From NCBI RefSeq assembly GCF_044324875.1, contig NZ_CP172185.1: DNA of 64,000 nt, one strand, 5' to 3'. Shown here in pieces: positions 13,369 to 23,330 of this stretch (within the stretch, counting starts at the first letter, position 1; the number at the start of each line of letters is the position of its first letter). The translations under genes were made by a program, and so were the position numbers. The notes below the pieces were generated by a model. It worked only from the letters and a program-made list of their open reading frames with translations. It was not told the DNA's origin and ran no database searches. Source of the DNA: Escherichia coli. GTDB lineage: Bacteria > Pseudomonadota > Gammaproteobacteria > Enterobacterales > Enterobacteriaceae.

Positions 13369-14000
13369 AACGACGTGACACCATCGTGCGCTACACCGCG
13401 CCGGAACGTATCAACCACTGGATCACCGCCTTCTGCTTCATCCTGGCGGCGGTGAGCGGGCTGGGCTTTTTGTTCCCGTCCTTCAACTGGTTGATGCAAA
13501 TCATGGGCACACCGCAGCTGGCGCGAATTCTGCACCCGTTTGTCGGCGTGGTTATGTTTGCCTCGTTCATCATCATGTTTTTCCGTTACTGGCATCACAA
13601 CCTAATCAATCGGGATGATATCTTTTGGGCGAAGAATATTCGTAAGATCGTCGTCAACGAGGAAGTAGGTGACACCGGGCGTTATAACTTCGGTCAGAAA
13701 TGCGTTTTCTGGGCGGCGATTATTTTCCTGGTTCTGCTGCTGGTGAGCGGCGTGATTATCTGGCGTCCTTATTTTGCGCCTGCTTTCTCAATCCCGGTGA
13801 TCCGATTCGCGTTAATGCTGCATTCATTTGCCGCAGTGGCGTTAATTGTGGTTATCATGGTGCATATCTACGCCGCCCTTTGGGTGAAAGGCACGATTAC
13901 CGCCATGGTGGAAGGATGGGTTACCAGCGCCTGGGCGAAGAAACATCACCCGCGCTGGTACCGTGAGGTCCGCAAGACAACGGAAAAGAAAGCTGAATGA
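13365..14000 (+). CDS. fdoI: Formate dehydrogenase-O cytochrome b556 subunit
   Basis: 211-aa membrane protein; start overlaps fdoH stop. Confidence 0.93.
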
Positions 14001-14926
14001 GTATTCGCATAATCCCGCAAGATGAGCTGGGTTCGAGCGAGAAACGTACGGCGGATATGATTCCGCCGTTATTGTTCCCTCGGCTCAAGAATTTATACAA
14101 CCGCCGCGCCGAGCGTCTGCGCGAGCTGGCAGAAAATAATCCGCTGGGTGATTATCTGCGCTTTGCTGCGCTTATCGCCCACGCCCAGGAAGTGGTGCTG
14201 TACGACCATCCGCTGGAAATGGATTTGACCGCACGCATTAAAGAAGCCAGCGCACAAGGCAAGCCCCCGCTGGATATTCACGTTCTACCGCGTGATAAGC
14301 ACTGGCAAAAGCTGCTGATGGCGCTGATTGCTGAGCTGAAACCTGAAATGAGCGGCCCGGCGCTGGCAGTGATTGAGAATCTGGAGAAGGCATCGACCCA
14401 GGAGCTGGAAGATATGGCCAGCGCACTGTTTGCCTCTGATTTCTCGTCCGTCAGCAGTGATAAAGCGCCGTTTATCTGGGCTGCGCTGTCGCTCTACTGG
14501 GCGCAGATGGCTAATCTGATCCCCGGCAAAGCCCGCGCTGAATACGGCGAACAACGTCAATATTGCCCGGTATGTGGCTCTATGCCGGTGTCCAGCATGG
14601 TGCAAATTGGCACCACTCAGGGGCTGCGTTACCTGCACTGCAACCTGTGTGAAACCGAATGGCACGTAGTGCGCGTAAAATGCAGCAACTGCGAGCAGAG
14701 CGGCAAACTGCATTACTGGTCGCTGGATGACGAACAGGCCGCGATTAAAGCCGAAAGCTGCGATGACTGCGGCACTTACCTGAAGATTCTTTATCAGGAA
14801 AAAGAACCGAAAGTTGAAGCCGTGGCAGATGACCTCGCCTCTCTGGTTCTGGATGCGCGAATGGAGCAAGAAGGCTACGCCCGCAGTTCCATCAACCCGT
14901 TCCTGTTTCCGGGTGAAGGGGAGTAA
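13997..14926 (+). CDS. fdhE: Formate dehydrogenase formation protein
   Basis: 309-aa ORF with paired CxxC motifs; start overlaps fdoI stop. Confidence 0.93.
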
Positions 14927-15108: not shown

Positions 15109-16119
<1,011 letters not shown>

Positions 16120-16203
16120 TGATTGGCATCCTGCCAGTCACTCCGGGAATTAACTCTTTTCACCACAGTCTCCATTGCCGTGTTTAAACCAGTGGAGACG
16201 TCA

Positions 16204-17769
16204 ATGTCCAGAAAGAGAAAATCCAGGAGCACTATGGAAACCTGTTTTAAGATCCTTCAGCTCAAGTTCGACAAGAAGCTGACTAACCGTTGTATCGGAC
16301 TGACGTTACACATCAGCGCCTCAACCGTTTTTGAGGTTCTTGCCCGCTTCAAAGCCTCTTCTCTGTCATGGCCATTACCTGCTGATATATCCCATGACAC
16401 GCTGGAGAAACTCATTTTTCCGCCCAAAGACACCTTTGCATCAGAGCTTGTAATGCCTGACATGTTGTACTTCGATACGGAAATGAGAAAACCAGGTGTG
16501 ACGCGGCAACTGTTGTGGATGGAATACAAGGCACAGGCGGGTAACAAAGCGATGGGATACTCGCACTTCTGCCGTTGCTACCGGGAGTGGAAAAAAACGC
16601 GACGTCTCTCCATGCGCCAGGAGCATCGTGCCGGCGAAAAGCTTTTTATCGACTTCTGTGGTCCTACGGTTCCTGTTATTAATCCGGACACCGGTGAGAT
16701 ACGCCGCGTGGCAATCTTCGTGGCCGTAATGGGGGCGTCCAACTATACCTACGTTGAAGCGTGCGAAGGTCAGGACATGATGTCATGGTTAAATGCCCAC
16801 AGCCGTTGCCTGACCTTCCTGGGCGGCGTACCGAAGCTGCTCATCCCCGATAACCTCAGAAGCGCAGTGAAAAAGGCCGATCGATATGAGCCTGTCATCA
16901 ACGACAGTTATCAGGCACTGGCTGAGCACTATGGCACGGTTATCATCCCGGCCCGACCACGCAAACCTAAAGATAAACCAAAAGCAGAAAACGGCGTCCT
17001 CATCGTTGAACGATGGCTTCTTGCCCGCATCCGTAATGAAACCTTCCACACGCTCAGGGCGCTGAATGCGCGCCTTAGGGAGTTACTGACAGACATGAAT
17101 AACCGGCCAATGAAGGGGTACGGCAATCAAACCCGTGCAGAACGCTTCCGCATACTGGATGCGCCAGCACTCTCTCCGCTGCCTCTGGCACCTTATGAAT
17201 ACACGGAATACAAAGCTGTGAAGGTTGGCCCTGACTACCACGTTGAATATGCCCGTCACTGGTACTCCGTTCCACACGAACTGGTCGGTCAGCGTCTGTC
17301 ACTGAAGGCGGGGCAGTCGGTGGTACAGCTCTGGCACAAGGGGCAGTGTGTGGCGCAACATCCGCGCAGCACACATGAATATAAACACACAACCAATCCG
17401 CTTCACATGCCAGAGCGCCACCGGCAGCACGGGACATGGACACCGGAACGCCTGATCGAGCAGGGAAAACGTACGGGCCCGTCCACAGGCCGGGTGGTTG
17501 AATCCATGCTGAAGGCAAAACCCCATCCGGAACTGGCTTATCGTGCAGTTCTGGGGCTGCTGGCACTTCAGAAAAAATACGGCCCGGAACGGCTGGAAAA
17601 GGCCTGTTACGTTGCCCTGCACTATAACGCCCCTGACAGACGCTTTATCGACAATCTGCTGCGTCACCATCGGGAGAACCTGGAGCTTCCATTATCCCGC
17701 CAGGGCGAACAACATCCGGCATATGCTTCAGAGCATGAAAACCTGCGTGGTCCGGGCTACTACCACTGA
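16204..17769 (+). CDS. istA: IS21-family transposase IstA
   Basis: Large ORF with HTH N-terminus and integrase-like core; start uncertain (16204 or 16234). Confidence 0.8.
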   Translation: MSRKRKSRSTMETCFKILQLKFDKKLTNRCIGLTLHISASTVFEVLARFKASSLSWPLPADISHDTLEKLIFPPKDTFASELVMPDMLYFDTEMRKPGVTRQLLWMEYKAQAGNKAMGYSHFCRCYREWKKTRRLSMRQEHRAGEKLFIDFCGPTVPVINPDTGEIRRVAIFVAVMGASNYTYVEACEGQDMMSWLNAHSRCLTFLGGVPKLLIPDNLRSAVKKADRYEPVINDSYQALAEHYGTVIIPARPRKPKDKPKAENGVLIVERWLLARIRNETFHTLRALNARLRELLTDMNNRPMKGYGNQTRAERFRILDAPALSPLPLAPYEYTEYKAVKVGPDYHVEYARHWYSVPHELVGQRLSLKAGQSVVQLWHKGQCVAQHPRSTHEYKHTTNPLHMPERHRQHGTWTPERLIEQGKRTGPSTGRVVESMLKAKPHPELAYRAVLGLLALQKKYGPERLEKACYVALHYNAPDRRFIDNLLRHHRENLELPLSRQGEQHPAYASEHENLRGPGYYH

Positions 17770-17785
17770 CAGAAGGAACAACAGT

Positions 17786-19117
<1,332 letters not shown>

Positions 19118-19159
19118 TGAACTGCACCCCAAATGTTGGACATAATCTGACATCTGAAG

Positions 19160-19690
19160 GTGCAGTTTATGAAACATTCATTTGAAGTAAAACTTGCCGC
19201 TGTAAATCACTACCTGGCTGGTCATGCAGGCATCATTTCTACGGCAAAACTCTTTCAACTTTCTCACACCAGCCTCTCACACTGGATTAATCTTTTTCTT
19301 CTTCACGGTCCTCGGGCACTGGATTGCAGACACAAGCGTAGCTATTCTCCTGAAGATAAACTTTGCGTGGTTCTTTATGCTCTCGGGCATTCTGAGTCTC
19401 TACCCCGGGTAGCTGCCCGGTTTAACATTCCCAGCCACAACACGGTTAAAAACTGGATAAAAGGCTACCGCAAATCTGGTAATGAGGCCTTTATCAGGCG
19501 CTGGAAGGAGAAAAGCATGACCCGTTCTGATGATACCCATGAAAACGAGGCAAACATGACGCCGGAAGAGATGAAGAATGAGCTGCGTTATCTTCGCGCA
19601 GAAAATGCATATCTGAAAGCCATGCAGGAGCATCTCCTGGAAAAAAAGCGCCAGGAGCTGGAGAAAAAACGAAAGTCATCCGGAGCCTGA
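19160..19690 (+). CDS. IS3-family transposase OrfA (HTH)
   Basis: 176-aa ORF with HTH and leucine-zipper-like C-terminus. Confidence 0.8.
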   Translation: MQFMKHSFEVKLAAVNHYLAGHAGIISTAKLFQLSHTSLSHWINLFLLHGPRALDCRHKRSYSPEDKLCVVLYALGHSESLPRVAARFNIPSHNTVKNWIKGYRKSGNEAFIRRWKEKSMTRSDDTHENEANMTPEEMKNELRYLRAENAYLKAMQEHLLEKKRQELEKKRKSSGA

Positions 19691-19794
19691 GGTGCGGACA
19701 CTGCCAGTCTGACCTGTTAAAGGCTGCAGGGCTGGCCAGAAGCACGCTGTACTACCAGCTGTCACTGCAGAAGGCTAAGGACAAGTATGCTGAT

Positions 19795-20576
<782 letters not shown>

Positions 20577-20786
20577 ACGCACGTTGTCAGCAAATGGCGA
20601 AAAAAGTCCCCTTGTTGAATCTTTAAAGAAAGTGTATTTACGCATCACTTTTTATTTTTGCGAGGCGTTTTTCAGATATGAAGTAACAGTTGCAGTTATT
20701 ATAAGTTCAAGTAAAACAGCCTCGTATTAATTCCAGAATAAGGGCATCTGGCTTTTTATTTAATATTCAAGAATGAAAAGTTTTTG

Positions 20787-21005
20787 TCATTCCTTATGCT
20801 CATGACACTCATCATCAACACCTGCTACCTCATCCCTTTGCCTACCGCCTTTTACCTTACGCACCGGAAATTGCTGCCGCTCCAGATATTGCTCCACCGC
20901 TTCGCGTAAAATTGCAGATCGTGAAACCTTACGCCAGCCCCGAAGCTTGTTCAGCCGTTTAATTGCCTCGTCTGATAAATGAAGAAAAACCGTACTCATC
21001 ACCAT
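20787..21005 (-). CDS. yiiE: Ribbon-helix-helix (CopG-like) small DNA-binding protein
   Basis: 72-aa product from ATG 21005 (MVMSTVFLHLSDEAIKRLNKLRGW...); GAGGGGG RBS. Confidence 0.7.
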   Translation of the reverse strand: MVMSTVFLHLSDEAIKRLNKLRGWRKVSRSAILREAVEQYLERQQFPVRKVKGGRQRDEVAGVDDECHEHKE

Positions 21006-21253
21006 CGCCACCCCCTCACATATATCTCTCGTCAATGCATGGTGCGAAAATTACGCCGAAAATTTAATTAATAAAAGCTGATTTTTGCATCTTGTTTTAT
21101 TTTTGCGAGACGTTTTCCAGAAATAATGCAACAGTTGCAGTTATTTCAATTAATATTAAAAAACGGTTCAGCTATCATCCGGGATGATTTACTATTCTTC
21201 ATCAGGTGCTGGCGCACCCACAGGAAAGAAACGATAAACAATAAGGATGAGTT

Positions 21254-21724
21254 ATGGATGCTGATAATATATTATATTCAGGAATGTTTATTTTTTTGAT
21301 CGGTTTTGCATGGATCTTCGGTTGCATCATCCGCATGGTGTACCCGAAAAAAGTCAGCGTCTTTACCGCTCCAGGCTTTAGCGGCGCTGTTACCCTGCCA
21401 AAAGCAGGTGACTATGCGGTGACAATTACACTCCCGCTCAAAAGCGGTATTGCGTCATATCTCCCTGGCGCGAGCTTTTATTCAGCACAGTTTACCATTA
21501 CCGCCTCTGAGAGCCAGCAAGCAATAGCACTACAACGTAAAGGAAAGTGGGGAGCTAATTCTTATAACAAGGATTTTATCGGTAATAAAAGCCATATTAT
21601 TGGGGTATTTAATTGCCCTCAAGCCACGGAGAATTACGACATAGTTTGCACTAATCCACAGATTATTCACGACACCTATAAAGTGGAAATCATAAACTAT
21701 ATCTCTCTCTCGGAAAAAGAATGA
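21254..21724 (+). CDS. Hypothetical membrane-anchored protein
   Basis: 156-aa ORF; AAGGA RBS; N-terminal hydrophobic helix then Ser/Thr/Gly-rich domain; AT-rich. Confidence 0.55.
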   Translation: MDADNILYSGMFIFLIGFAWIFGCIIRMVYPKKVSVFTAPGFSGAVTLPKAGDYAVTITLPLKSGIASYLPGASFYSAQFTITASESQQAIALQRKGKWGANSYNKDFIGNKSHIIGVFNCPQATENYDIVCTNPQIIHDTYKVEIINYISLSEKE

Positions 21725-21795
21725 TGCAAACCATCCCCGGTTGGATCCTTGTTTTTATTGCGGTGGGGTTAATTATTATTCCGCAAGTAAGTTAA
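21721..21795 (+). CDS. Possible 24-aa hydrophobic peptide overlapping the stop of the upstream gene
   Basis: ATGATG overlapping upstream TGA; MMQTIPGWILVFIAVGLIIIPQVS is a single transmembrane-like helix. Confidence 0.25.
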   Translation: MMQTIPGWILVFIAVGLIIIPQVS

Positions 21796-21832
21796 TGGCA
21801 GAGATTACTGCACTGCATCCATCGCAGACCGG

Positions 21833-22141
21833 TCAGTGCTGCCACCAACCGGTCTTTACTTGGTAGTAGTAGTAATTTTGCGGATAACAGTCCGGGAACC
21901 AGACAATTCCTTGTGGATCATCCCCCTTCATCACCCGATAGCATTGGCGTCGATCATCGGCGCGGCGACGAAGAGTAGTATAAAGCCGTTTCCACTCATG
22001 ATCGCCCGGTGTACTGTAGTTTACCCAACACTCCATTGAAGGGTGACGCCATTTACCTGTCAGTGTTGGGATCCCTGAATGATTATGCAGCTTCGCTTTA
22101 CCATTACGATCCCTATCTTTACGCGTATTAAGCGTGGACAT
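21833..22141 (-). CDS. Hypothetical basic protein (102 aa)
   Basis: ORF with AGGAG RBS 8 nt upstream of ATG; no recognisable domain. Confidence 0.5.
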   Translation of the reverse strand: MSTLNTRKDRDRNGKAKLHNHSGIPTLTGKWRHPSMECWVNYSTPGDHEWKRLYTTLRRRADDRRQCYRVMKGDDPQGIVWFPDCYPQNYYYYQVKTGWWQH

Positions 22142-22202
22142 TTTTAGTCTCCTGTTAAGAGTTCTAAAAATGTGCTTCCTTAAAATAGTTCATCATTTTC
22201 CC

Positions 22203-22415
22203 TTAATTCGCATAGCGTGCTTTTGCTCGAATTTCCGATACGCGGGGACCATTATGATAGCGTCGATGCCCACACATCCAACAAGAACAAATACAGGGAG
22301 TACGAAAGCAAATACCTGATGCTTTTTTGCTTCCATCGCCTGCAGTGCGATAACGGCAGCGGATTTTTTTTAATCGCGCCATATGATGGCGACGTTCAGC
22401 ACGATTACGGGTCAT
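22203..22415 (-). CDS. Hypothetical Arg-rich, Cys-rich small protein (70 aa)
   Basis: ORF with AGGAG RBS; CFRTPCICSCWMCGH cluster suggests metal binding; RBS lies in a hairpin arm. Confidence 0.5.
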   Translation of the reverse strand: MTRNRAERRHHMARLKKIRCRYRTAGDGSKKASGICFRTPCICSCWMCGHRRYHNGPRVSEIRAKARYAN

Positions 22416-22422
22416 AGTAAAA

Positions 22423-22528
22423 CTCCTGAGCAGGCGGCACTATGCCGCTTTCATAGGAGTTCTGAATGCTGGTGCTTTCTGTATGGCATAACCATGCCTC
22501 TAACGGTTAAGTGCCTGCAGCACATGTT
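22423..22528. repeat. Copy 1 of a ~100-bp repeat containing a 37-bp palindrome
   Basis: About 85 percent identical to 24240-24343; overlaps the last codons of the HigA-like gene. Confidence 0.6.
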
Positions 22529-22790
22529 GCGGATCATTGGCAATCGCTCGCAGCAAAGCCTTTGCAGGCCCAGTCGGTGAACGTCGCCCCTGCTCCCAGT
22601 TACGCAACGTGTCTACGCTTACGGAAATAAGTTCGGCAAATTTAGATTGTGACAACCCTGAAGCGCGGCGTATTTCTTTGATTTTCATAGCATCAACTTC
22701 AAAAGTCCGTGAAGGGTGTCGCGTTCCTTCAATAATTTCATTCATCTGGGCCATGCTGTGAGTCAACCGCTCAAAAAGTGCCTTATCCAT
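22500..22790 (-). CDS. HTH (XRE-family) antitoxin, HigA-like
   Basis: 96-aa ORF; HTH region SGLSQSKFAELISVSVDTLRNWEQG; start directly after toxin gene stop. Confidence 0.75.
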   Translation of the reverse strand: MDKALFERLTHSMAQMNEIIEGTRHPSRTFEVDAMKIKEIRRASGLSQSKFAELISVSVDTLRNWEQGRRSPTGPAKALLRAIANDPQHVLQALNR

Positions 22791-23102
22791 TTACCACCTC
22801 GTATTTAACAACCGGAGCATTGATTTTTCCTGGGGAGACAGATCATCTTTAATACCCTTACGATAAATAAGCAGTAATCTGATCTCATAATGTTTAACCT
22901 GATGAAAGTAAATAACCCTGACACCAGCACGTTTCCCCTTTCCTCCTGACACCCATCGAACCTTTCTTAACCCACCAGTTTCAGGTATTACCTCACCATA
23001 GTCAGGATTCAAGGCCAGGAAAAACTGAAAACGACTGAATTCATCGTCGGTCAGCAGTTTTTGAACATCTTCAGTAAAAATTTCCGTTTCGATGAAGAGC
23101 AT
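22791..23102 (-). CDS. RelE/HigB-superfamily toxin
   Basis: 103-aa ORF with KGKRAGVRVIY motif; toxin-first gene order typical of HigBA-type modules. Confidence 0.7.
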   Translation of the reverse strand: MLFIETEIFTEDVQKLLTDDEFSRFQFFLALNPDYGEVIPETGGLRKVRWVSGGKGKRAGVRVIYFHQVKHYEIRLLLIYRKGIKDDLSPQEKSMLRLLNTRW

Positions 23103-23330
23103 AATTATACGCCATTGGCTTAGAGTAACAATCCTTTTTGTACGTCATTGACGTACCCTTGAAACCACTAGCTTACTGATAGTGCTCCAGCAAAACCACG
23201 TCTCTGCCGGGTTTGTCTTTACATTTGCGAGGCGCTTTCCAGATTTTTCACGCCCGTGAATTTCCCTGTATCCATCCAGCAAAAACGGGTGTATAAAACT
23301 GTACATTCATACAGCAAAATGAGTTCTACT

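What the first reader, a model, noticed from the sequence alone, without database searches (positions are those of the whole stretch)
20651..23243. Repeated promoter-like motif, with an operator-like palindrome in two of three copies
TTTATTTTTGCGAG(G/A)CGTTTT(T/C)CAGA...AACAGTTGCAGTTATT occurs at 20651-20700 and 21097-21145 (about 44 of 50 identical), and a shorter TTTGCGAGGCGCTTTCCAGA at 23224-23243. Copies two and three lie upstream of minus-strand yiiE and of the HigB-like gene; the second copy contains the 6-1-6 palindrome TGCAACAGTTGCA. This points to a shared regulator or duplicated promoter modules.
Basis: seen in the sequence. Interest (0 to 1): 0.5.

Follow-up and report, generated by a model that had tools for sequence, protein, structure and literature searches.

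The report
Three Sxy-dependent CRP (CRP-S) binding sites

Summary
TTTGCGAGRCGYTTTYCAGA occurs three times on the + strand (20657-76, 21102-21, 23224-43), where shuffles give 0.01 on average. Copies 1 and 2 are 44/50 identical.

The motif reads TGCGA-N6-TTCCA. That is the asymmetric, orientation-independent E. coli CRP-S site, bound by cAMP-CRP only with Sxy/TfoX. It matches the validated K-12 sxy site at 17/20 positions, ybaV at 16/20 and ppdD at 15/20.

The exact 20-mer also lies in at least 9 unrelated intergenic contexts across Enterobacteriaceae. Most are beside toxin-antitoxin modules or LexA-box (SOS) genes, and similarity stops at the motif edges.

- **Copy 3:** across 8 genomes only the 20-mer, a -10 element and a LexA box are conserved upstream of the alpha/beta hydrolase gene. 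Their spacing is fixed, placing the site near -70.5, a class I activator position.
- **Copies 1 and 2:** these are the paralogous upstream regions of yiiF (deleted in this window) and yiiE.
- **Palindrome:** TGCAACAGTTGCA is perfect only in this window and is absent from K-12.

YiiE or the HigA-like protein are unlikely binders of the 20-mer. A separate palindrome (23140-56) looks like the toxin-antitoxin operator. Binding and Sxy dependence are predicted, not shown. Verdict: new member of a known kind, modest interest.

The parts
20657..20676 (+). Copy 1: CRP-S-like site TGCGA-N6-TTTCA (one change from TTCCA), centre 20666.5. It is orphaned, because in E. coli it lies 118 nt upstream of yiiF, which is deleted here.
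21102..21121 (+). Copy 2: CRP-S site TGCGA-GACGTT-TTCCA, centre 21111.5. It lies between minus-strand yiiE and a plus-strand 156-aa ORF.
23224..23243 (+). Copy 3: CRP-S site TGCGA-GGCGCT-TTCCA, centre 23233.5. It lies in the divergent region between the higB-like/nadS operon and the alpha/beta hydrolase gene.
20623..20716 (+). Extended paralogous block around copy 1 (94 nt, 76% identical to the block around copy 2).
   Evidence: D1
21068..21161 (+). Extended paralogous block around copy 2.
   Evidence: D1
21127..21139 (.). 6-1-6 palindrome TGCAACAGTTGCA, perfect only in this window and not conserved in K-12.
20787..21005 (-). yiiE, a 72-aa CopG/ribbon-helix-helix protein.
21150..21178 (+). Sigma-70-like promoter TTAATA-17-TATCAT. 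It would place copy 2 at about -73.5 and faces the 156-aa ORF (21254-21724).
22500..23102 (-). higB-like toxin (22791-23102) and NadS/Xre-type antitoxin (22500-22790) operon.
23292..23314 (+). Hydrolase promoter elements: -10 TATAAA (23292-97) and LexA box CTGTACATTCATACAG (23299-23314). Their distance from copy 3 is conserved in 8 genomes.
23331..24239 (+). Alpha/beta hydrolase gene (Abhydrolase_3), the likely target of copy 3.

Best explanation
Each copy is a CRP-S site. This is the non-palindromic 22-bp site (core TGCGA-N6-TTCCA) that cAMP-CRP occupies productively only together with the co-activator Sxy (TfoX).

Bound CRP-Sxy is expected to bend the DNA and contact the RNA polymerase alpha C-terminal domain from an upstream (class I) position. 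That would activate nearby sigma-70 promoters when cAMP is high and Sxy is present.

- **Copy 3** is placed to activate the alpha/beta hydrolase promoter, with its centre near -70.5. That promoter is also covered by a LexA box, so it would be under dual competence/SOS control, as at sbmC.
- **Copy 2** sits about 70-74 bp from candidate promoters in both directions (yiiE, and a 156-aa ORF).
- **Copy 1** is the yiiF-side site, left behind after yiiF was deleted.

Shown: the sequence match, the distribution, and the conservation of sequence and spacing. Inferred: CRP/Sxy binding, the transcription starts, and which genes respond.
For: 1. **Match to the published motif.** The motif equals the E. 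coli CRP-S motif 5'-T4G5C6G7A8-6N-T15T16C17C18A19-3'. That motif is described as asymmetric, orientation-independent and acting at class I distances (Sondberg 2019, PMC6728893; Cameron & Redfield 2006, PMC1635313).
2. **Match to validated K-12 CRP-S promoters**. sxy TTTGCGAGGCTCTTTCCGAA is 17/20, ybaV 16/20 and ppdD 15/20. hicA and higB share the right half ATTCCAGAA.
3. **Distribution.** The exact 20-mer lies in at least 9 unrelated intergenic contexts in Enterobacteriaceae. Similarity between contexts is confined to about -6..+21.
4. **Orientation independence.** The motif occurs in both orientations relative to a homologous C4-RNA cassette.
5. **Phylogenetic footprint.** Upstream of the hydrolase in 8 genomes of 7 species, only the 20-mer, the -10 and the LexA box are invariant. 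The spacing from motif to LexA box is 54-55 nt throughout.
6. **Precedent for TA operons under CRP-Sxy.** E. coli hicAB P1, plus chpSB, higBA and hokD, are induced by Sxy. H. influenzae toxTA is another case (PMC11951105).
7. **Precedent for a CRP-S promoter.** sbmC is named as a class I CRP-S promoter.
8. **Not chance.** Three matches against 0.01 expected.
Against: - No binding, expression or transcription-start data were available for this locus. Sinha 2009, the E. coli Sxy regulon paper, could not be read.
- No accessible paper links yiiE or yiiF to Sxy.
- Promoter predictions around copies 1 and 2 are weak and ambiguous.
- The distance to the best higB-like promoter (-136) and to the relBE-context promoter (-47.5) is not a canonical CRP position.
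- Copy 2 has decayed in some E. coli lineages (TTTGCGAGACGGCATCCAAA in strain A10). Copy 1 carries TTTCA here.
- The perfect conservation inside the 20-mer across genera is partly an ascertainment effect of the exact-pattern search.
Confidence: 0.75

Rival explanations
1. The similarity is only common descent. On this view the copies are duplicated upstream (promoter) modules from a tandem duplication of an RHH gene plus its leader, with no shared trans-acting factor.
For: - Copies 1 and 2 share 94 nt, or 78 nt by BLAST from -34 to +43.
- They precede the paralogous 72-aa RHH genes yiiF and yiiE, which are 43% identical at the protein level.
Against: - The non-coding block (76-79% identical) is far better conserved than the coding sequences.
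- Copy 3 and at least 8 other contexts share only the 20-28 nt core, with no flanking homology.
- This explains the long repeat but not the core motif. It is complementary to the CRP-S reading rather than an alternative.
Confidence: 0.1
2. One reading: the motif, with the palindrome, is an operator bound by the locally encoded repressors (YiiE/YiiF RHH proteins or the HigA/NadS-like antitoxin).
For: - The copies lie upstream of RHH and TA genes.
- Copy 2 has a perfect 6-1-6 palindrome next to the motif.
- A GTAACAGTTGCAGTTATT element is shared by copies 1 and 2 and could still be an RHH site.
Against: - The 20-mer is not palindromic or tandemly repeated, as RHH and HTH antitoxin operators are.
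- It lies 96-122 nt from the start codons, upstream of rather than over the core promoters.
- It occurs in loci without these proteins, such as yfhM, C4-RNA cassettes and sxy-like sites.
- The palindrome is absent or imperfect in orthologues.
- The TA operon has its own perfect 8-1-8 palindrome, GTACGTCAtTGACGTAC, at 23140-56 next to TTGTTA-16-TATAAT.
Confidence: 0.05
3. The 20-mer is a recombination or cassette-junction site at which small accessory modules (TA pairs, SOS genes) are inserted or swapped.
For: - Homology between loci starts or stops exactly at the motif edges.
- The fdhE-fabY locus holds vapBC in Citrobacter, a relE/xre pair in Salmonella, and both in tandem in Escherichia. Each leftward module is preceded by a direct copy of the motif.
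- All three copies here are direct repeats.
Against: - There is no associated recombinase and no inverted-arm/spacer architecture.
- In the ilvA-ilvY insertion the motif lies about 135 nt inside the insert, not at its edge.
- The yiiF deletion junction (about 20595) is not at the motif.
- Sharp edges are expected for any short conserved protein-binding site embedded in diverging DNA.
- The CRP-S identity explains the sequence fully.
Confidence: 0.06
4. The minus-strand reading CTGGAAAnCGyCTCGCA is a sigma-54 promoter (GG-N10-GC) driving yiiF, yiiE and the higB-like operon.
For: - The spacing is correct: TGG-N8-TCGC, as in glnAp2 (from the sequence plus prior knowledge).
- The orientation is the same towards three minus-strand genes.
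Against: - Sigma-54 ChIP-seq in K-12 lists a site in fdoI/fdhE but none at the yiiE or yiiF copies, although both carry the intact motif.
- In other genomes there is often no minus-strand gene downstream.
Confidence: 0.02

Closest known systems
CRP-S site of the E. coli K-12 sxy promoter (Jaskolska & Gerdes 2015; Sondberg et al. 2019, PMC6728893)
   Same: - It has the same asymmetric core TGCGA-N6-TTCC(A/G) and nearly the same spacer (GGCTCT against GGCGCT).
- Identity is 17/20.
- It has the same T-rich 5' flank and lies upstream of a sigma-70 promoter.
   Different: - The sxy site has been shown experimentally to need CRP and Sxy. The sites here are predictions.
- The second half-site is TTCCA here and TTCCG at sxy.
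CRP-S-controlled toxin-antitoxin promoters: E. coli hicAB P1 (Turnbull & Gerdes 2017) and H. influenzae toxTA (Findlay Black 2020, PMC6957337); Sxy-induced chpSB, higBA, hokD (Sinha 2009, as cited in PMC11951105)
   Same: - A CRP-S site lies upstream of small TA or antitoxin-type genes.
- The hicA and higB upstream regions share the right half ATTCCAGAA.
   Different: - The gene families differ: yiiE/yiiF RHH orphans and a higB-like/NadS pair.
- For copy 3, the conserved geometry points to the divergent hydrolase gene rather than the TA operon.
sbmC promoter
   Same: It is named as a class I CRP-S promoter (PMC1635313). From my own knowledge, not checked here, it is also LexA-regulated, like the CRP-S + LexA-box arrangement upstream of the hydrolase gene.
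   Different: - The gene is unrelated (a gyrase inhibitor against an alpha/beta hydrolase).
- The sbmC sequence was not compared here.
Canonical CRP (CRP-N) site TGTGA-N6-TCACA
   Same: It has the same 22-bp frame, 6-bp spacer and G5/G7/A8 contacts in the left half.
   Different: - Position 6 is C, not T.
- The right half is TTCCA, not TCACA.
- Such sites bind CRP poorly without Sxy: an 80-fold loss is reported for T6 to C6.

Membership tests
E. coli-type CRP-S (Sxy-dependent CRP) site | Conserved half-site T4G5C6G7A8 (TGCGA, with C rather than T at position 6) | tested here: met
   All three copies contain TGCGA preceded by a T-run.
E. coli-type CRP-S (Sxy-dependent CRP) site | 6-bp spacer followed by the less conserved half-site T15T16C17C18A19 (TTCCA), giving an asymmetric site | tested here: met
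   Copies 2 and 3 read TGCGA-N6-TTCCA. Copy 1 reads TGCGA-N6-TTTCA here and TTCCA in E. coli.
E. coli-type CRP-S (Sxy-dependent CRP) site | Sequence similarity to experimentally validated CRP-S sites | tested here: met
   sxy 17/20, ybaV 16/20, ppdD 15/20. These are the best matches in each K-12 upstream region.
E. coli-type CRP-S (Sxy-dependent CRP) site | Works in either orientation relative to the promoter | tested here: met
   The motif is found in both orientations upstream of homologous C4-RNA + ~150-aa cassettes. It is also found on either side of divergent gene pairs. This shows consistency with the feature, not function.
E. coli-type CRP-S (Sxy-dependent CRP) site | Class I position (about -61.5, -71.5, -82.5 and so on) upstream of a sigma-70 promoter | tested here: inconclusive
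   - Copy 3 sits at about -70.5 from a conserved -10/LexA-box promoter in 8 genomes.
- Copy 2 sits at about -73.5 and about -70.5 from candidate promoters.
- Other contexts vary from -47.5 to -136.
- No transcription starts have been mapped.
E. coli-type CRP-S (Sxy-dependent CRP) site | Activation and binding require both cAMP-CRP and Sxy | not testable with these tools
   This needs Sxy induction, crp mutants and EMSA.
Sigma-54 promoter | GG-N10-GC elements, and sigma-54 occupancy in vivo | tested here: not met
   The spacing fits on the minus strand. However, K-12 ChIP-seq shows no site at yiiE or yiiF.
Rfam STnc560 sRNA | Score at or above the gathering threshold (55 bits) | tested here: not met
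   The score is 18.7 bits with E 0.2-0.87. STnc560 belongs to the ydeI/ydeE locus of Salmonella.
Dispersed intergenic repeat family (REP/BIME, ERIC-type) | Many copies per genome and a hairpin-forming unit | tested here: not met
   The median is 2 and the maximum 4-6 places per E. coli genome. No inverted partner or hairpin was found.
TA / RHH autoregulatory operator | Palindromic or tandem-repeat site overlapping the operon's core promoter, found with the cognate regulator | tested here: not met
   The 20-mer is asymmetric, lies 96-122 nt from the start codons, and occurs in loci without these regulators. A separate palindrome at 23140-56 fits this role.

The most novel reading that the evidence does not exclude
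Besides being a CRP-S site, the 20-mer may act as the crossover point at which alternative toxin-antitoxin and SOS cassettes are swapped or stacked in enterobacterial chromosomes. That would make it a short 'portable junction' explaining two observations. First, homology between loci breaks exactly at its edges. Second, the fdhE-fabY locus carries vapBC, a relE/xre pair, or both in tandem, with each leftward module preceded by a direct copy of the motif.
Probability: 0.07. Interest if true: 0.7.

Novelty: new member of a known kind. Interest (0 to 1): 0.3.

Why it matters
If the prediction holds, the RHH genes yiiE and yiiF and an SOS-box-bearing hydrolase next to a HigB-like toxin-antitoxin pair belong to the Sxy/CRP "competence" regulon of Escherichia.

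Near-perfect CRP-S sites would also be a recurrent feature of accessory toxin-antitoxin, SOS and prophage-immunity-like cassettes across Enterobacteriaceae. That would extend the known link between competence regulation and toxin-antitoxin systems. It would also give a simple sequence rule for predicting Sxy targets in accessory genome islets.

It does not reveal a new mechanism.

Tried and rejected
- **Rfam.** The only hit was a sub-threshold STnc560 match. STnc560 maps to an unrelated Salmonella locus, so this was rejected.
- **Sigma-54 promoter on the minus strand.** The spacing fits, but K-12 sigma-54 ChIP-seq shows no site there. Rejected.
- **Sigma-70 core promoter made by the motif itself.** No conserved -35/-10 pair was found in either direction.
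- **Small ORF or leader peptide across the motif.** Frames and flanks are not conserved between contexts.
- **Dispersed repeat or mobile-element end.** Copy number is low, there is no inverted partner, and plasmid and phage hits are few.
- **Recombination or attachment site.** I considered this seriously because of the sharp homology edges. It is not supported by the ilvA-ilvY insertion boundaries or by any recombinase-type architecture.
- **Literature search by sequence string.** Nothing was found.
- **Searches for yiiE or yiiF together with Sxy or CRP-S.** Nothing accessible was found.
- **SlyA/H-NS.** yiiE is reported as SlyA-induced and H-NS-bound. This does not explain the motif.
- **Class I spacing test across all contexts.** Automatic promoter prediction proved too noisy to use, except where a conserved -10/LexA box fixes the promoter.
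Full report
**Observation**

The 20-nt core TTTGCGAGRCGYTTTYCAGA occurs at 20657-76, 21102-21 and 23224-43, always on the + strand. Each copy is within one mismatch of a common sequence. 100 dinucleotide-preserving shuffles of the window give 0.01 matches on average, and none gives three.

The similarity between copies 1 and 2 extends to 94 nt at 76% identity. The 6-1-6 palindrome TGCAACAGTTGCA is present at 21127-39.

**Locus**

The region is the E. coli fdhE-yiiF-yiiE-(islet)-fabY locus.

- FdhE in the window (13997-14923) is 100% identical to the K-12 FdhE sequence that I supplied from memory as the query. The islet itself is only 92-94% identical to any E. coli genome in the collection.
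- The window is therefore probably from the E. coli/Shigella lineage and carries a divergent allele of the islet.
- In E. coli, copy 1 lies 118 nt upstream of yiiF, a 72-aa ribbon-helix-helix (RHH) paralogue of yiiE.
- In this window, yiiF and about 60 nt of its proximal upstream region are missing (junction about 20595). A cluster of IS elements lies to the left.
- Copies 1 and 2 are therefore the paralogous upstream regions of yiiF and yiiE.
- Copy 3 lies in the divergent region between a higB-like/NadS-type toxin-antitoxin (TA) operon on the minus strand and an alpha/beta hydrolase gene on the plus strand.

**Distribution elsewhere**

In 5,413 E. coli genomes the element occurs a median of twice, and at most 4-6 times. 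It is not a dispersed repeat.

An exact-pattern scan of one genome per bacterial species found the 20-mer in many Enterobacteriaceae. The remaining hits were in coding sequence (for example polB), in other unrelated non-enterobacterial sequence, or in two contigs filed under other genera that are near-identical to E. coli copy 1 and are probably contamination.

The enterobacterial hits fall into at least nine unrelated intergenic contexts:

- yiiE/yiiF.
- The TA|hydrolase divergent region of the same locus in Citrobacter, Salmonella houtenae, Superficieibacter, Phytobacter and Enterobacter.
- A relBE module next to cybC.
- A higBA module between ilvA and ilvY.
- yfhM in Kosakonia.
- rhuM|symE in Enterobacter hormaechei.
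- Cassettes made of a LexA-box promoter, a C4-type antisense RNA and a ~150-aa gene.

All-against-all comparison shows that similarity between different contexts is confined to the motif. Information content falls to background outside about -6..+21.

**Identification**

The motif reads TGCGA-N6-TTCCA. Sondberg et al. (PMC6728893), summarising Sinha et al. [quoted passage not shown] They report that it is asymmetric, that both different halves are required, that it works in either orientation, and that it acts from class I-like distances through CRP activating region 1 together with Sxy. Cameron & Redfield (PMC1635313) give the T-rich flank and the C6 signature.

I fetched K-12 upstream regions of known CRP-S promoters and looked for the best match to the motif:

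| Promoter | Best match | Identity |
|---|---|---|
| sxy | TTTGCGAGGCTCTTTCCGAA | 17/20 |
| ybaV | TTTGCGAGGCGGCTTCAGGA | 16/20 |
| ppdD | TTTGCGAGGCGTTACGAAGA | 15/20 |

The hicA and higB upstream regions share the right half ATTCCAGAA. The three copies in the window are therefore near-consensus CRP-S sites.

TA operons are already known members of Sxy/CRP-S regulons. Examples are E. coli hicAB P1, Sxy-induced chpSB, higBA and hokD, and H. influenzae toxTA (PMC11951105).

**Which genes?**

For copy 3 there is a clean phylogenetic footprint.

- In eight genomes of seven species, only the 20-mer, a -10 element (TAT-AA), a LexA box (CTGnAT...ACAG) and the start codon are invariant upstream of the hydrolase gene.
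- The distance from the motif to the LexA box is 54-55 nt in all of them, although the intervening sequence has diverged.
- With a transcription start about 7 nt after the -10, the site centre (23233.5) is at about -70.5. This is a class I position.
- The LexA box (23299-23314) covers the predicted start.
- The hydrolase promoter therefore looks like a dual CRP-Sxy/LexA promoter. sbmC, named as a class I CRP-S promoter, is also LexA-regulated from my own knowledge.

The best higB-like promoter is TTGTTA-16-TATAAT at 23131-23104. It has an adjacent perfect palindrome, GTACGTCAtTGACGTAC, at 23140-56. That promoter lies about 136 bp from copy 3, so a direct effect on it is less likely.

Copy 2 is about 73.5 bp from the best plus-strand promoter-like site (TTAATA-17-TATCAT, facing the 156-aa ORF). 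It is about 70.5 bp from a weak minus-strand -10 (TAATTT) ahead of yiiE. The target is undetermined.

Copy 1 has lost yiiF and carries TTTCA instead of TTCCA in this window.

**Palindrome and local repressors**

The perfect palindrome is specific to this window's copy 2. It is imperfect in two other E. coli lineages and absent in K-12.

A GTAACAGTTGCAGTTATT element is shared by copies 1 and 2 and might be a separate site. There is no evidence either way.

The 20-mer itself is not a plausible RHH or HTH operator. It is asymmetric, distant from the start codons, and present in loci without such proteins.

**Rejected alternatives**

- A sigma-54 promoter on the minus strand fits the GG-N10-GC spacing. 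K-12 ChIP-seq shows no sigma-54 site at yiiE or yiiF.
- The Rfam STnc560 hit is far below threshold and belongs to another locus.
- A recombination or cassette-junction role is suggested by the sharp homology edges and by the alternative TA modules at the fdhE-fabY locus. It lacks any recombinase or core-site architecture. It is also contradicted by the ilvA-ilvY insertion, where the motif lies about 135 nt inside the insert.

**Limits**

- Nothing here shows binding or regulation.
I cannot say whether the K-12 yiiE and yiiF sites were already listed there.
- The perfect conservation inside the 20-mer across genera is partly a product of searching for an exact pattern. Diverged CRP-S sites such as sxy, ppdD and ybaV were not captured by that search.

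**Verdict**

The feature is real and non-random. It is best explained as three CRP-S (CRP-Sxy) activator sites, with confidence about 0.75. It is a new member of a known kind and of modest interest.

Noticed in passing
window 23299-23314: There is a LexA (SOS) box, CTGTACATTCATACAG, immediately after a -10 TATAAA upstream of the alpha/beta hydrolase gene. The box and its position are conserved in Citrobacter, Salmonella houtenae, Enterobacter, Phytobacter and Superficieibacter. This suggests an SOS-regulated esterase-type gene.
   Followed up: partly
window 23140-23156 and 23104-23131: A perfect 8-1-8 palindrome, GTACGTCAtTGACGTAC, lies just upstream of a strong sigma-70-like promoter (TTGTTA-16-TATAAT) that abuts the annotated higB-like ATG (23102). 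This is probably the real TA operator. The -10 ends only 1 nt before the start codon, so the annotated start or the leader is odd.
   Followed up: no
window ~20556-20600 (and 15328-20540): yiiF is precisely missing here: a REP-like sequence is followed directly by the distal yiiF upstream region. Several IS elements (IS21-like, an IS110-like fragment, IS3-family) fill the 5.6 kb between fdhE and this point. An IS3-family element ends about 15 bp from the REP-like sequence.
   Followed up: partly
window 20733-20761: There is a plus-strand terminator-like hairpin, CCAGAataagggcaTCTGG, followed by CTTTTTATTT. It lies between copy 1 and the 3' end of yiiE, with no plus-strand gene upstream. A short CRP-S-adjacent transcript cannot be excluded.
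   Followed up: no
L006 863-949, L013 5250-5333, L015 6127-6214, L026 7359-7444, L032 1783-1867: In Enterobacter, Lelliottia and related genomes the same CRP-S 20-mer lies upstream of cassettes containing a C4 antisense RNA (Rfam RF01695, above gathering score) and a ~150-aa gene with no Pfam match. In the four loci where the motif and cassette share an orientation, a LexA-box-like promoter lies between them. The motif occurs in both orientations relative to the cassette. In L015 a CRISPR array follows.
   Followed up: partly
L046 (Citrobacter freundii), L047 (Salmonella houtenae), L018, L034: The fdhE-fabY locus carries alternative TA modules in different genera: vapBC, whose antitoxin is the yiiF orthologue, or a relE/xre pair. 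These sit beside the same CRP-S/LexA/hydrolase unit. Escherichia has remnants of both in tandem, plus yiiE. yiiF therefore looks like an orphan VapB antitoxin.
   Followed up: partly
window 20594-23500 versus 13997-14923: The islet is only 92-94% identical to any of 5,426 complete E. coli genomes, whereas the FdhE protein encoded nearby is 100% identical to the K-12 FdhE sequence I supplied from memory. This points to a divergent, probably recombined, allele of the islet.
   Followed up: no
window 24408-26261 (minus strand): A 617-aa ORF lies next to the hydrolase gene. It was not identified. In E. coli genomes the corresponding region is annotated as a transposase and a truncated hypothetical protein.
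   Followed up: no
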